A stretch of 64,000 bases of DNA from Paraspadella gotoi (Eukaryota; Animalia; Chaetognatha). Below, one piece after another: positions 32,401-38,400 of the stretch. Both the position numbers and the translations under genes were made by a program. Every line of letters starts with the position of its first letter. The first letter of the stretch is position 1. The stretch covers positions 13,465,904-13,529,903 of the forward strand of contig CM119270.1 in assembly GCA_051294375.1 (NCBI GenBank), in the 5' to 3' direction. The notes beneath the pieces were generated by a model. That model made no database searches. It was given only the letters and a program-made list of their open reading frames with translations, and was not told the DNA's origin.

Positions 32401-35400
32401 TTCAGTCTCAATCGACGCCGGTGGCGCCGTCCGTGGTCGTCTCCGCTCACGTCGCCGCCGTGCCCGTGGCGCCGACGCTCAAAAGGCGCGACGGCGTCAC
32501 TTCCGGTTTGAACGTTTCCTCGCTCCGCAGCGCCACCATCCTCGCCATGTCGAATCTCTTGAACGCCAACATCGACTCCGGTCTAATGCACTCCATCGGA
32601 TTGGGGTATCACAGGTGAGGATTTGGATTTTCACTTGATGCAGCTAGGATTACTTGCTCCATCGGGTTGAGGTCTCAAAAAATATTATCTTCTCTTATCA
32701 TTTTATCGGGCTTGGGAGAAGAGGCAAGGATCGTTTGTTATTAAAGTAAATAGTTTCCGAGGTCAATCTACGCATTTAAATTGAATCATCAAAAAATGGA
32801 AAATCTCTGTCACATCTTTAGTGTCGCTACTAGAGATTCCTTTAAGTTAAAAAGCTGGGGTTTTAGACGTATGGCTATCTTCTCTTTTTAACACCTTTGA
32901 GCTGGGCTATATGAGTGTAAAGGTCCTCCACCAACTGAAAACCATTTTTGCCCCTTCGCTTCCCGAAGGGATCTCCAAACTCGGGCGGCATTCATGGAGG
33001 TCCTCACCAAGATCCTTCAACAAGGGACGGAGTTCGACACTCTCGCGGAGACGGTGCTCGTGGACCGGTTCGAGCGTCTCGTCGAGTTGGTCACCATGAT
33101 CGGCGAGAAGGGGGAGCTACCCATAGCTATGGCTTTGGCCACGGTAGTCTCCACGCCGCACATGGACGAGTTGGCCAGGTGGATTATTGAGCGATATGAA
33201 AAGCTGCTGTATTGCTTTTGTATGGATGTTTTATTGATATTATTGATCACAAATAATGAAAAATTGTTTCGTCCAAATTTTATTTACATTTATCACAATG
33301 TTTAAATACTAATATTTTACTTAAGTTTTAATTTAATCTTTAGCGAATGTTCCCAACCTCCAACCCTTCGTTCATACATACGTAGTACTGAAAGAAGTTT
33401 AACTTTCTTCTTCTTTTCTTCTTATTACAGAGTGTTTGTAACTCTCTTCGATGCCAAGCACCTCCTTTACCAATTTCTCCACAACGTATTCTACAAGGAG
33501 GTGGAAGTTGCTGATTGCATGCAATCCGCCTTCAGAGGCAACGGCTTTGCCTCCAAGGTCATGTCTTTTGCCTTCAAGATGTACGGAAACAATTATCTAC
33601 AGGTAATGATTAGATATTGTTCAGACGATTAAAATCCCAAAATTGTCATCGTTTAGTTTTACCATTTCTTAAAATAAGTGGCAATATTGACTATTAAAGA
33701 GCTTGTATTTTTCTTGTATACGCAAAAAATACGCGATTATAATTTCCGATCTGAGCTGATTATTCTGAAGTGTCGGGGAGATCTTATCTCGGTTTATAAA
33801 CACTTGAATCGTTTCTTATTAGTCATGAAAAAAAACAAACTTTTTTTTAGTTACCTCGCTATTACCAACAGTTTTTTTAGACTTTTTTGTATATCTAACT
33901 TCTTTTTCAAAAAAAAAAACCTTCGAAAATTAAAAGAAAAGGGGAGGGGGAAAATCATGGCGGAGCAGCAATATCCAGGAGGAGCTCGTCCCAAGACGAT
34001 TGCCAATTACTTTAATCATTGCAACATTAACAGAGTGATAACCGCCGGCACGATTAACGAGGGACCCCAACTTTCTCGTTTCGACAGCGTAGAGCTCAGA
34101 CGTCAACTTCGAGAAGTACTCAAAGCTCATTACATTTCCACTTATGAACTCCATTCTTTTTTTCAATATATACGTTGTTCACCTCCTTTGAGGTTAACGT
34201 TGGACAACTTTTACTTTGATTTACGATGTGAATCATTTCACGATCATTTTGAACCTGGAGAAAAGCTATTGGATGTGTTGGAGAGAGAAGTTAATCACGA
34301 CAAGAAAAGATTAATCGTTACTGGCCGCCGATTAATCGGCAAAAGCGAGTCAACCAGAAAAATTTGCCGCGAATGGGCGAAAGGAGAGAAGTTCGGCAAA
34401 TTCCGATTCGTTGTCCGTGTTGATTTTTATAATGAACAAGGAGGGGGTCTGTGGGAAAATATTTCTACAACGCTCGAGCCGTTAAACACGCAAGGAATTG
34501 ACTCCAACTTGGGCGCAGAAATAGTTTTAGAGCACGAATACAAAACTTTGATTCTTTTAGACAACTTTGATTATGCGAAGAGCGAGACCAAAATATCAAT
34601 CCTCGATTACTTTAAAGTTGATCCCACGCCCCTCGAAAATATCACAATGATACTTTTCACAAGTCAAGAAAATATTTCCCAAAACCTGGTCTATGACTCT
34701 TTGCTGAAAATTATGCCCTTAACGGTGGAAGAAAGCAAGAACTTCCTTCTCAATACCTTACCTTTTTCTACTGAATCTAATAGGGAATTAGAGGCATTTA
34801 ATTTAGACTTTTTGGAATTCATCCCTATTTCACCTTTCAATCTTTTAATTTGCGTACTTTTTTGTGAAGGAGTGGTTGGCGCATCATTTCCATCGAAAGT
34901 AGGCGAAGTCTCTTGTCATTTCTCTAAAGATGACCCTAAATTGTCAAACAAATTCCTTGAATATTTCGTTTGCTATCCAGAAGATGTGATCAATTCGAAG
35001 TATGGCTTACGGACATTGTTTGCTTGGCTTAAAAGATTTTTTTCTTCAATTTTAAGAAACAACGTTATTTTGCCAGAAAAAATGATGACTGAAATTCTGT
35101 CAAAAGACTTTGACTATAAACTCATAGTCCAAGAAACTATTCAGTCAATGGACAAGTATGAAATTTTTTCTTCATTTTTAAATTTAAAAAAAAATCCAAC
35201 TGATTCTTTGAGAAAACAATTTGTTTTGAAGATTAAGTATTTCACAGACAATCAATTCGAGTCACTTTTTTTCAAAATCTCCGCAATCTTCATCCCTCCA
35301 AATAATACTTGTATTAAAGTCACTAACCCTCGCAAAGAAATGATCTATTACCGTTGCGGAGGAGGAAAGCCAAAATTAATCATCAACCCTTTACTCTGCT

Positions 35401-38400
35401 ACTTGTCCAATCATTTCAGATCGATCTCCCGAGACAGACTTGTCAATGCCGTCACTGATCACTTTTCTTTCAAAGAGATCGAAAGAGCAAAACATATGCT
35501 GTGCAGAGAAGCAAACGAAATGTTTATCCCGCGATTTGGGAAAGATCGAGTGAGAACCTCTCTTGAAGACATCGTGGAAATATTAATGACTTCGCACGAA
35601 TGTGGCGTTGCTTTGCCGATATTCGTCGTTGCCGACTATTCAAAAATCCTGATGCCAACCAAGAAAAATTCAGAGTCACTGCCAGAACAGGTTTCCCAGA
35701 CGAATGAACTTACCAATCTTGTTACACCTACCGCTTACGGAGATAAAATACCCTTCGATAACGTCCAAAAGGTCTCCTACAGTAGGCTTGGCTTCCCAGT
35801 GACGCTGCCAAAGAGAAAAACGATGCCGACAAACCGCTCCCTTCGCCGGAAACGCACTTTGCTCAGGATGCGCAAGTTTGAAGAAAGACTCAAGAGGCAA
35901 GAAAACTATAACGCAGCCCAAAACTCTCTGACTTTCGCTAAATCTGGAAGAGGTGAAGCAAAATACGAACCAATAATCCACCAAAATCTTGAAAACGCTT
36001 CGTCTATGGCCAATGATATGAAAATCCCTCGAGCTTCTGACAACAACAGAAATGAGCTTACAGCAATGCTTAGTAGCAAGACACAAATGATTCAAGCAAT
36101 GTCAATTGAAAACCAACAATATTCGAGCGCCAATGATTTTGCATTTACTGTTGATCCTCTGCAAAACCAGAATAACTCTAACATTATCCAAACTGATCTA
36201 CCAGAAGTAGCGGGAGCTTTACCGATAAATAATCTCGGGGGTTCTGGGACTGACGAAAGTATTGCTTCCATGAAATCAAACATTTTGCCTTCAATGATGA
36301 AGATGTTACAGAAATCGACTCAAGGAGACCATCAAGGATCGGGCTCAATTTTTGGGAACAACCAAGTGGCAGGTGATGAGGGACGAGAAAATCTGCAAAG
36401 CCACGGTGACTACCAAGATCATTCAGAAGGACTAAATGAAGTAATAGATGCTTTGCTAACAAGGATTAATCATCAGTATTCAAATGATGACACAAATGCT
36501 CCTACATTGATTTCTGACATATTGCCATCTATGATGTCTATGTTCCAGAAAATGCTGTTGGGAAAGCAACAAGAAACCTCTGGTGATGGTAAAGAAAGTC
36601 AGCCATGCCCGAGTGATGGACAAACTGTTCCGAATGAGAGAAACAATGTTTCATCTTTTCTAAGCGGTCGTCAAAATACTTCCTTCATGTCTGGCCTGTT
36701 TTCTTCTCTGATGGAGATGGGTGCTTCGATGGCCGATCATATTACACGGAATGATTTATTGGTGGATGAAAGAGAAGATAATCTGGAAAATCCTATGGTC
36801 GACGAAGATAGAGATTTATCTGATATTCCACTTGATTGATTTTACAGATTTTACAGACTTGATTCTTATATTAATCACAACGATGAAAAAATTGATTTAT
36901 TTACATGTCTTTGATTTTTTTTATATTTCATGGTGTATTAAGAAAATTATGTACCTAGAAAAATTATAATCAATATTAATCATAATGGCTAATTTTGACT
37001 TTATAAAAGTATTTGTTTGAAATATTTTATTTGATTGTTTAAACTTTATTAAGAATACAAAATTTTTAAGGCAACTATGTTTCTTACTAAAACTGAATTG
37101 TAAAAATAAATAATGTATTTTTTAGTCATTTAAAATTTTGTGGTATAGATTACTCAGTTTGACTTAAGATTTTTTTTTTTGTTATTGCGTCTTCTTACAT
37201 ATATTCTTATGCAGAAATTTTGTTGATTATCTTTAATTGAAAAATGACAACATCAAGTTTTAAATTTCATTGCTTTGTTTATATGGATAAAGAATATTTC
37301 TAGTGAGCTACTCGAGCTGTAGTTCGTTCACAGGGGAGAAGAAATAATATAAACAGATAAATAGTATTATAAATATAAGATAGGATATAAAGAAATAAAT
37401 AGTATAAATCTGGTAACCTCCGCGACAGATGATGATCGGGCCGGCCCTGAAGAAGATGATGGACGCGGGCGACATCTCTTACGAGATCGACGCCAATCGA
37501 CTCGAGGGCGAAGACCCCGACGAAAACAGAACGAAGATCACGCAACTCACGCAAGAGTAAGGGTTTGTTGAGATGGAGTGGATGATGTTGTCATAGGGTC
37601 GATGATGTTGTCATAGGGTCGTTGTAGCTTGTGGTTTGGTCCCTTGGTTTATCTTCGGATTGTTTGTATTTTAGGCGTCGTAAAAAAAAAAAGAACAATC
37701 CGAATTTTAAAAGTTCACTATATCATGTCGGAGTTACCGTTGTAATAATTTTAGGAGGGAAACCAATGAAAGATGAAAGCGTTAATATTTTATTTGTTTC
37801 AAAATCAAAATTTTCAGATTTATGAGCATTTTAACAACGTTGTCAGGGTAATTTATTAATGAATAAATAAAAAAATATATATTTTCCCTCTTTTTTCCAG
37901 CATCTACTGCAGAATAGTGAAATCGAAAAATCTCCTTCCTTCACAACTACGCAGTCTCATTCTCTGTCTCAATCAAGTCATGGCGCAACGATTCCCGCCC
38001 TCTGCGGTCCCGGTGAATGTCAAAAGGGTACAAGAAACTGTTCGAAAATAAATAGTCTAATACACGGTTTTTTTTTTATATTGACGACAATACTTTTTTG
38101 CAAGTTTTAACAAAAAAAAAAAAAACAAAAACAAACAAACTTTTAATATTTCCCTCAGAAACTAAAGCAAATTGTAATCACTGATGACCTCATCTTTTAA
38201 AGGCTCACCGACCGCTTGACCAATTTTACCCGGATGTGAGCCCGCGCGAGAACCCGATTCAGGCGGTCGGAATGGTTGTCTTTCTGCGCTTCATCAACCC
38301 GGCAATCGTCGCGCCCAGCGAGGCGGGACTGCTCGACCAAGAGCCACCACCGAGAATGAGGCGGGGACTCATGCTTATTTCAAAAGTCATGCAGGTTTGA

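What the first reader, a model, noticed from the sequence alone, without database searches (positions are those of the whole stretch)
33603..37428. Intronless NACHT-like/LINE-ORF1-like chimeric gene nested on the same strand inside an NF1 GRD intron
Seen: a 3.1-kb stop-free ORF fills the intron between the arginine-finger exon (...YGNNYLQ|gt, 33602) and the next GRD exon (ag|MMIGPAL, 37429). It has its own ATG (33957) and a downstream AATAAA. It encodes a pre-NACHT helical segment, a P-loop with NACHT-like spacing, a distinct ~95-aa domain and a low-complexity tail, with no LRR, TPR, ankyrin or WD sensor. Known: animal NLRs normally end in a repeat sensor, and same-strand nested genes are rarer than antisense ones. 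Inference: a non-canonical NLR-like gene, probably retroposed, with an integrated transposon-derived domain in place of the sensor. Its polyA site could also truncate NF1 transcripts mid-GRD.
Basis: partly seen in the sequence, partly recalled or inferred. Interest (0 to 1): 0.88.

Follow-up and report, generated by a model that had tools for sequence, protein, structure and literature searches.

The report
NACHT-LINE ORF1 chimera inside NF1
An intact, transcribed, intron-free reading frame inside an intron of an invertebrate's NF1 gene joins the worn-down core of an immune-receptor ATPase to the front domain of a retrotransposon protein; it is likely a working gene for a scaffold that no longer switches, but its job is untested.

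Summary
A 1053-codon open frame (960 aa from ATG 33957) lies on the NF1 strand in a 3826-nt GT-AG intron, just after the Arg1276 exon.

Residues 112-318 are an animal NLR-type NACHT core. Walker A Lys and the first Walker B Asp remain; the D[GAS]hDE signature, sensor-1 Arg and any winged-helix His are gone. There is no LRR.

Residues 469-566 match the N-terminal helical domain of a LINE ORF1 family. One homologue's contig is a LINE with endonuclease-RT ORF2. The ORF1 C-terminal domain and RT are absent from the window.

A run that contains spliced NF1 RNA covers at least 74% of the ORF, including the junction into the ORF1 domain. Two other DNA samples differ at 0-1 sites. An old in-frame duplication in the tail hints at protein-level constraint.

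Not shown: retroposition (no poly-A tail or clear TSD), NF1 truncation or fusion, orthologues, function. No protein with both domains and no paper on this fusion was found.

Verdict: a real, probably functional, lineage-specific chimeric gene, likely a catalytically degenerate scaffold. It is a new variant of known kinds, not a bona fide NLR.

The parts
33431..33602 (+). NF1 GRD exon carrying the Arg1276-equivalent residue; phase-0 GT donor at 33603
   Evidence: E 5.8e-19 to neurofibromin 1243-1298; spliced to the previous exon in run X9
33603..37428 (+). Host intron, 3826 nt, GT...AG; one of the two largest NF1 introns seen (most gaps between exon hits are 80-1100 nt)
   Evidence: the splice across this intron is inferred from protein collinearity, not seen in RNA
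33678..33956 (+). 93 stop-free codons upstream of the main ATG, AT-rich; in-frame ATG at 33825; pyrimidine-rich AG sites at 33850, 33871, 33880 are out of frame with the ORF; one weak in-frame GAG at 33755
33957..36839 (+). Nested intronless coding sequence, 960 aa plus TGA (P0001)
   Evidence: RNA cover
34290..34910 (+). NACHT nucleotide-binding domain plus HD1 (residues 112-318)
   Evidence: Pfam PF05729 E 5.8e-5 to 7.6e-4, below the curated cut-off; 49 bits against a profile of NACHT homologues built without the query, 0 of 200 shuffles; phmmer hits to animal NACHT proteins; Atlas 0.92-0.93 to NACHT clusters
34323..34346 (+). Walker A, GRRLIGKS (residues 123-130): GxxxxGKS kept, inner Gly replaced
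34548..34574 (+). Walker [10 protein letters not shown]: first Asp kept, D[GAS]hDE signature broken
   Evidence: signature
34656..34667 (+). Sensor-1 position, FTSQ: Arg replaced by Gln
34911..35360 (+). Residues 319-468, in the position of the winged helix and start of HD2 (inferred from position only); no His in residues 322-470
   Evidence: no significant profile match (25-48 of 200 shuffles scored as well); His scan
35361..35654 (+). N-terminal helical domain of a LINE ORF1 family (residues 469-566)
   Evidence: 39 of 42 phmmer hits; hhalign probability 99.1%; homologue in LINE contig L001; AlphaFold model with 4 helices and 2 short strands, pLDDT 93-97
35673..35936 (+). Linker ending in a basic Lys/Arg-rich stretch (17 K+R against 8 D+E); possible nuclear-localisation or nucleic-acid-binding patch (inference)
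35937..36836 (+). Acidic, polar, Met-rich tail with no family match
36252..36578 (+). In-frame internal duplication, offset 237 nt (copies near 36252-36341 and 36489-36578), motif ILPSMMxMxQK
37105..37110 (+). AATAAA, candidate poly-A signal; the last RNA contig listed ends at 37067
37429..37556 (+). Next NF1 GRD exon (MMIGPAL...), spliced onward to 37901

Best explanation
This transcribed, intact reading frame in the NF1 intron fuses a degenerate NACHT core to the N-terminal domain of a LINE ORF1 protein, and it is likely a separate working gene whose product would act as a non-switching scaffold or modulator rather than as an ATP-driven receptor. Shown: the frame, its place, both homologies, the altered motifs, RNA cover. 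Inferred origin: a LINE joined an NLR-type gene in the same orientation, at or near the ORF1 start, which removed HD2-LRR; the ORF1 coiled coil, C-terminal domain and ORF2 were then lost or replaced by a new tail that duplicated internally. Inferred working: it may still bind nucleotide (Walker A Lys, first Walker B Asp, HD1 Pro kept) but probably hydrolyses or senses it poorly. The folded ORF1 domain and the repeated tail helices would supply protein contacts, most plausibly tuning other NACHT proteins or a partner of ORF1. It would be transcribed as its own unit ending near 37100, with NF1 spliced over it.
For: Open frame far beyond chance. Run X9 holds spliced NF1 junctions on both sides, and no listed X9 piece runs from an exon into intron, unlike the DNA runs. 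Its listed contigs cover 2127 of 2883 ORF bases; one (35219-35709) spans the junction into the ORF1 domain, and one runs to 37067. Samples X5 and X8 show 1 and 0 differences. NACHT match to residue 318. ORF1 match: 39 of 42 hits; in 24 of 39 the domain starts within 12 residues of the N-terminus; L001 is ORF1 plus endonuclease-RT. The domain keeps the family's near-invariant residues and folds confidently. Tail duplication: 57 of 90 nt, 0 of 200 codon shuffles; 12-codon core pS 0.64 against pN 0.15. A frame this long survived 5% random substitution in 0 of 1000 trials. Motif losses.
Against: No orthologue or paralogue, so no dN/dS; all 3 listed differences between samples change an amino acid (2 are in one contig at depth 2.5). 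RNA comes from one run of unstranded contigs whose RNA status is the tool's guess; no single contig spans the ORF, and 34319-34914 has no listed cover. The repeat core was picked by similarity; over 36 codons pS is 0.58 and pN 0.41. Motif loss does not prove inactivity: NLRC4 lacks the sensor-1 Arg, and CIITA and NOD5 lack the His. LINE context was read for 1 of 39 homologues only. No partner or function was tested.
Confidence: 0.5

Rival explanations
1. Decaying chimera: a once-functional NLR hit by a LINE, or a copy of an older chimeric gene, now drifting and transcribed passively inside NF1.
For: Several catalytic motifs are lost; 3 of 3 listed differences are nonsynonymous; no relative holds both domains.
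Against: 960 open codons at 24-39% identity to the nearest relatives; open frames survived 2% substitution in 57 of 1000 trials and 5% in 0 of 1000; the tail repeat diverged mostly at silent sites in its core.
Confidence: 0.15
2. Integrated-decoy sensor: the ORF1 domain would co-assemble with, or be bound like, the ORF1 protein of active LINEs, and the NACHT would relay this to a partner NLR or restrict retrotransposition.
For: The domain sits where the sensor normally lies and keeps the family's conserved residues. L1TD1 associates with L1 ORF1p (title of PMC11925450). Plant NLRs with integrated domains, and sensor NLRs with dispensable P-loops, are recalled precedents.
Against: The ORF1 C-terminal domain is absent and the coiled coil after the domain scores lower than in homologues (1.38 against 1.57-1.80 on a crude score). 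No effector domain is recognisable. No second copy was seen at 85% identity or more (contigs cannot prove absence), whereas arms-race receptors are usually families.
Confidence: 0.12
3. Alternative last exon of NF1: transcripts splice or read into the intron and end at the AATAAA, giving a GAP-truncated NF1 or an NF1-NACHT fusion.
For: Same strand; 93 open codons upstream of the ATG; one in-frame GAG acceptor at 33755; AATAAA at 37105.
Against: No joint from an NF1 exon into the ORF was listed, and spliced NF1 RNA exists downstream. The three better acceptors are out of frame and stop after 2-9 codons. ATG 33957 has its own good context.
Confidence: 0.1
4. Cargo or internal ORF of a transposon (for example a Helitron, or a LINE that captured a NACHT fragment).
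For: One half is LINE-derived; the host intron is unusually large, as for an insertion.
Against: No terminal repeats or clear TSD; no RT remnant (best E 0.69) or ORF1 C-terminal domain in the window; 17 of 19 records laid from X5 and X8 are 99% or more alike, and the two others are short chance-like pieces; no second copy in the window; no relative in viral contigs.
Confidence: 0.08

Closest known systems
Animal NLRs (NACHT-LRR; nearest hits Asterias rubens XP_033646433.1 and Ptychodera flava XP_070556414.1; NLRC4, NLRP3, NOD2-type structures through them)
   Same: NBD-HD1 alignable at 25-32% identity; Walker A Lys, first Walker B Asp and HD1 Pro kept
   Different: No LRR, no recognisable effector domain, broken D[GAS]hDE, no sensor-1 Arg, no winged-helix His; LINE domain follows
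Non-canonical invertebrate NACHT proteins (ctenophore NACHT genes, PMC11797021 passages, whose figure legend lists an RVT domain among NACHT architectures; sea cucumber AjNLR-new, PMC13133943 abstract)
   Same: NACHT combined with unusual domains and without LRR; lineage-specific
   Different: None seen in what I read carries an ORF1-derived domain, and none is described as nested
LINE ORF1 co-options: L1TD1 (PMC4161310, PMC11925450; search listings) and Lyosin, an L1 ORF1-MYL4 fusion isoform (PMC12129022, abstract)
   Same: ORF1 coding sequence reused in or fused to a host protein
   Different: Those are vertebrate L1-type ORF1; here a different ORF1 family, only its N-terminal domain, fused within one exon to a NACHT
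ORF1 of APE-type LINEs, resembling Jockey-superfamily type III (PHD plus RRM; PMC4120745); example L001
   Same: The helical domain (29% identity over 118 aa to L001 ORF1)
   Different: No zinc finger, no C-terminal RRM-like domain, no ORF2, apparently single copy. Clade (CR1 or L2) is recalled, not tested; the helical domain has no Pfam family
Human NF1 nested genes OMG, EVI2A, EVI2B (PMC4394429 passages)
   Same: Coding genes inside an NF1 intron
   Different: Those are antisense and unrelated in sequence type; this one is sense and lies inside the GRD
Bacterial NACHT-SNaCT proteins (bioRxiv 10.1101/2022.07.19.500537 passages); plant NLRs with integrated transposon-derived BED domains (recalled)
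   Same: A short domain directly after the NACHT module, or a transposon-derived domain inside an NLR
   Different: No PADLOC or SNaCT family match; those have working P-loops or partners; analogy only

Membership tests
NACHT (STAND) NTPase | Sequence similarity to the NACHT NBD-HD1 | tested here: met
   Pfam E 5.8e-5 but below the curated cut-off; 49 bits to a homologue profile, 0 of 200 shuffles
NACHT (STAND) NTPase | Walker A GxxxxGK[ST] | tested here: met
   GRRLIGKS at 123-130; the inner Gly of GxxGxGKS is replaced
NACHT (STAND) NTPase | Extended Walker B D[GAS]hDE | tested here: not met
   DNFDY; signature
NACHT (STAND) NTPase | Sensor-1 T-x-R | tested here: not met
   TSQ; NLRC4 also lacks the Arg
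NACHT (STAND) NTPase | Winged-helix domain with FxHxxQE His | tested here: not met
   No His in residues 322-470. Whether a winged-helix fold is present is inconclusive (full-length model pLDDT 34)
NACHT (STAND) NTPase | ATP binding, hydrolysis and oligomerisation | not testable with these tools
   needs biochemistry
Bona fide animal NLR | C-terminal LRRs with the NACHT (definition in PMC3879445) | tested here: not met
   no LRR family or hit
Bona fide animal NLR | N-terminal death-fold or other effector domain | tested here: inconclusive
   residues 1-115 match no Pfam family; not folded reliably
LINE ORF1-derived domain | Homology to proteins encoded as ORF1 upstream of an endonuclease-RT ORF2 | tested here: met
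   L001 ORF2 RVT_1 E 3e-35 and Exo_endo_phos_2 E 6.6e-7; context read for 1 of 39 homologues
Complete LINE ORF1 or LINE element | C-terminal RRM-like domain, ORF2 and 3' tail | tested here: not met
   profile of 19 C-termini and L001 ORF2 find nothing in the protein or window
Retrogene | Poly-A remnant, target-site duplication, loss of a parent gene's introns | tested here: inconclusive
   no poly-A tract after 37110; only a weak 24-nt pair at 33828 and 37103; parent unknown, no genome held
Domesticated transposon gene | Single copy, orthologous position, purifying selection | tested here: inconclusive
   no second copy seen and near-identical in other samples; no orthologue available; indirect constraint only
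Nested gene | Wholly inside a host intron and transcribed independently | tested here: inconclusive
   location met; RNA cover met; own start site and strand not shown

The most novel reading that the evidence does not exclude
An animal NLR with an integrated retrotransposon decoy: the captured ORF1 domain engages the ORF1 ribonucleoprotein of active LINEs, and the pseudo-ATPase NACHT passes that to a partner NLR or blocks retrotransposition. This would be protein-level transposon surveillance by an NLR-type protein, with a possible side effect on NF1 GAP output through intronic polyadenylation.
Probability: 0.1. Interest if true: 0.85.

Novelty: new variant of a known kind. Interest (0 to 1): 0.52.

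Why it matters
It is a concrete case of a LINE ORF1 domain grafted onto an NLR-type core at the sensor position in an animal, a combination I did not find in sequence or paper searches. It gives a handle on a widespread, unnamed ORF1 domain that has no Pfam family and no clear structural match, and whose role in retrotransposition I found no description of. If the protein engages LINE particles, it would link NACHT signalling to transposon control. If it is only a lineage-specific scaffold, it is one more example of gene birth by transposon fusion, in one species.

Tried and rejected
No genome is held, so paralogues, the source LINE family and the parent NLR could not be searched. Single-sequence AlphaFold of the whole protein was useless (pLDDT 34). 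No PDB sequence hit for the protein or its NACHT part. The profile search is driven by the homologues and was not used as evidence.

ORF1 domain: no Atlas hit at 0.9 or above; no Foldseek match at E 0.001 in PDB or viral libraries; best VIA-align Z 4.6 among 48,161 chains, with death-fold chains only at Z 3.4-3.8, so a death-fold reading is unsupported and a new fold is not shown either. The two-copy complex job gave no answer.

Word-index searches: 0 of 49 shorter candidates for the domain and 0 of 6483 longer candidates (556-2000 aa) for its alignment, which is weak evidence against other fusions. No locus for P0007 in metagenome contigs, or for P0001 and P0034 in viral contigs. No PADLOC or NCBIfam match. 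The RRM label for the homologues' C-terminal domain rests on a weak G3BP2 hit (E 0.049) and recall.

No listed run is on record as RNA. X9 has no listed cover at 33603-33958, 34319-34914 or 37068-37435, and organism B's run covers only 35 nt; these blanks are not evidence. Contig depths were not used to rank expression. My first codon comparison of the tail repeat used the wrong offset (240) and was redone at 237.

The host taxon could not be placed: NF1 exons are about 70-75% identical to unnamed, mollusc and arthropod proteins alike (43 of 120 proteins with 7 or more of 8 exons aligned were ranked). Papers: 0 hold NACHT, non-LTR retrotransposon and ORF1 together; 0 of 11 listed mention NACHT. 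Earlier-finding look-ups found nothing on this sequence.
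Full report
OBSERVATION. The + strand holds a stop-free frame from 33678 to 36839, 1053 codons; from ATG 33957 it encodes 960 aa. It lies in a 3826-nt GT...AG intron, 33603-37428. In 300 resampled copies of that intron the longest frame was 172 codons, and the other five frames over the ORF have 40-77 stops. 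The upstream exon matches human neurofibromin 1243-1298 (E 5.8e-19), and NF1 exons continue collinearly on both sides. Most gaps between NF1 exon hits are 80-1100 nt; this intron is one of two large ones. AATAAA is at 37105. A second in-frame ATG lies at 33825. The host is an invertebrate I could not place: NF1 exons are about 70-75% identical to mollusc and arthropod proteins alike. No genome is held.

NACHT HALF. Pfam gives NACHT at E 7.6e-4 for the whole protein and 5.8e-5 for the fragment, both under the curated cut-off. The Atlas's nearest clusters for residues 1-460 are mostly NACHT or related STAND families, at 0.90-0.93. Of 42 phmmer hits among 1.84 billion representatives, 3 match this half at 25-32% identity. 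All three carry a Pfam NACHT; the two named ones are from Asterias and Ptychodera, and the Asterias protein matches NLRC4 and NLRP3 structures. A profile built from these without the query aligns residues 112-318 at 49 bits; 0 of 200 shuffles of 116-290 came close. Residues 1-115 and 340-470 did not beat shuffles, so a winged helix is inferred from position only.

Motifs: Walker A GRRLIGKS keeps the Lys but not the inner Gly. Walker B reads LDNFDY against the D[GAS]hDE signature (passages of PMC2323615, and bioRxiv 10.1101/2022.07.19.500537). Sensor 1 reads TSQ, and there is no His in residues 322-470. Single losses of this kind occur in working NLRs (NLRC4, CIITA, NOD5), and loss of the His can activate NLRC4. 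Together they make a normal ADP/ATP switch unlikely, which is an inference. No LRR, TPR, ankyrin or WD family was found, so the NACHT+LRR definition of an NLR (PMC3879445 passages) is not met.

LINE HALF. The other 39 of 42 hits match residues about 470-590 at 24-39% identity; none of the 39 has a Pfam NACHT. In 24 of 39 the domain begins within 12 residues of the N-terminus. Nineteen of 39 are 340 aa or longer and share a C-terminal domain that looks RRM-like (weak support). The one locus I could fetch, L001, encodes such a protein followed by an endonuclease-RT frame (RVT_1 E 3e-35) and a short 3' tandem repeat, which is a LINE; its ORF1 matches the window's domain at 29% over 118 aa. A profile of 18 full-length homologues matches only residues 469-566 (probability 99.1%). 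The C-terminal domain and RT have no trace in the protein or window. The layout resembles type III ORF1 of Jockey-superfamily elements (PMC4120745; abstract, background, first results, Table 1 and passages), but I did not test the clade. AlphaFold on 40 sequences gives a confident four-helix, two-strand domain (pLDDT 93-97 over model residues 11-100) with no clear structural match.

TRANSCRIPTION AND POPULATION. Nine runs of one organism, from three studies, hold the stretch; four may be its source. I laid 4 runs (25 of 33 pieces were listed). X9 has loose ends at both flanking NF1 exons that match the neighbouring exons at 33146 and 37901, so it contains spliced RNA. No listed X9 piece runs from exon into intron, while X5 and X8 pieces do. 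X9's listed contigs cover 33959-34318, 34915-35140, 35219-35849 and 35930-37067, that is 2127 of 2883 ORF bases. One contig spans the junction into the ORF1 domain. No joint from NF1 into the ORF was listed. Strand, start, end and a single full-length transcript are not shown. X5 differs at 1 site, X8 at none and X9 at 2 (depth 2.5); all 3 change an amino acid. Of 19 records laid from X5 and X8 at an 85% threshold, 17 are 99% or more alike, which hints at a single copy but cannot prove it.

SIGNS OF CONSTRAINT. An open frame of this length survived 2% random substitution in 57 of 1000 trials and 5% in 0 of 1000, without indels. The tail holds an in-frame duplication at 237 nt (57 of 90 nt; 0 of 200 codon shuffles). 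Its 12-codon core has pS 0.64 and pN 0.15; over 36 codons the values are 0.58 and 0.41. So the tail has been an open frame for long enough to erode silent sites, though the core was chosen by similarity. A recent move of an older gene into this intron, followed by decay, is not excluded.

ORIGIN. The ORF1 domain starts where HD2 would begin, and it is the first domain of most homologues. The simplest reading is a same-orientation LINE insertion or recombination into an NLR-type gene that removed the sensor, followed by loss of the rest of the element. Retroposition into NF1 is possible but unshown: no poly-A tract, no convincing TSD or terminal repeats, and some NLRs are single-exon over NACHT and LRR. 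As an NF1 exon, the three better acceptors are out of frame and stop within 2-9 codons; only a weak GAG at 33755 is in frame.

MECHANISM AND RIVALS. Best (0.5): a separate, translated gene for a nucleotide-binding but poorly switching scaffold, with the ORF1 domain and tail helices as contact surfaces. Rivals: decaying chimera (0.15), LINE-sensing integrated decoy (0.12), NF1 alternative last exon (0.10), transposon cargo (0.08).

COMPARISON AND NOVELTY. Each ingredient has precedent: LRR-less invertebrate NACHT proteins (PMC11797021 passages; PMC13133943 abstract), ORF1 co-option (L1TD1, listings; Lyosin, PMC12129022 abstract), and genes nested in human NF1, where about a third of nested genes overall are on the host strand (PMC4394429 passages). 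Plant BED-NLRs are recalled; one search gave no direct source. The NACHT-ORF1 fusion itself was not found among proteins or papers; the library lacks most subscription papers, and I read no supplements. It is a new variant of known kinds, seen in one species, with function untested. Interest 0.52.

Noticed in passing
window 14213-15721 (+): A 502-codon AT-rich intronless ORF, very hydrophobic, looking like a multi-pass membrane protein; no Pfam family.
   Followed up: partly
window 1-2254 and 4576-6822: A 2.25-kb inverted duplicate at 97.4% identity, with an AT-rich palindromic element at 2189-2822 that recurs at 58708-59374; foldback element or assembly artefact.
   Followed up: no
window about 41546-46391: A second large NF1 intron (about 4.8 kb) with no long ORF listed; contents not examined.
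   Followed up: no
window 37581-37621: A 20-nt tandem repeat in the next NF1 intron; sample X5 has one more copy.
   Followed up: no
L001 543-4811: A LINE whose ORF1 (zinc-finger-like N-terminus, unnamed helical domain, coiled coil, RRM-like end) has no Pfam family; its ORF2 is broken by a stop and a frameshift. The helical domain family deserves its own model.
   Followed up: partly
window 23431-48069 (+): NF1 exon hits span this range, about 30 exons.
   Followed up: partly
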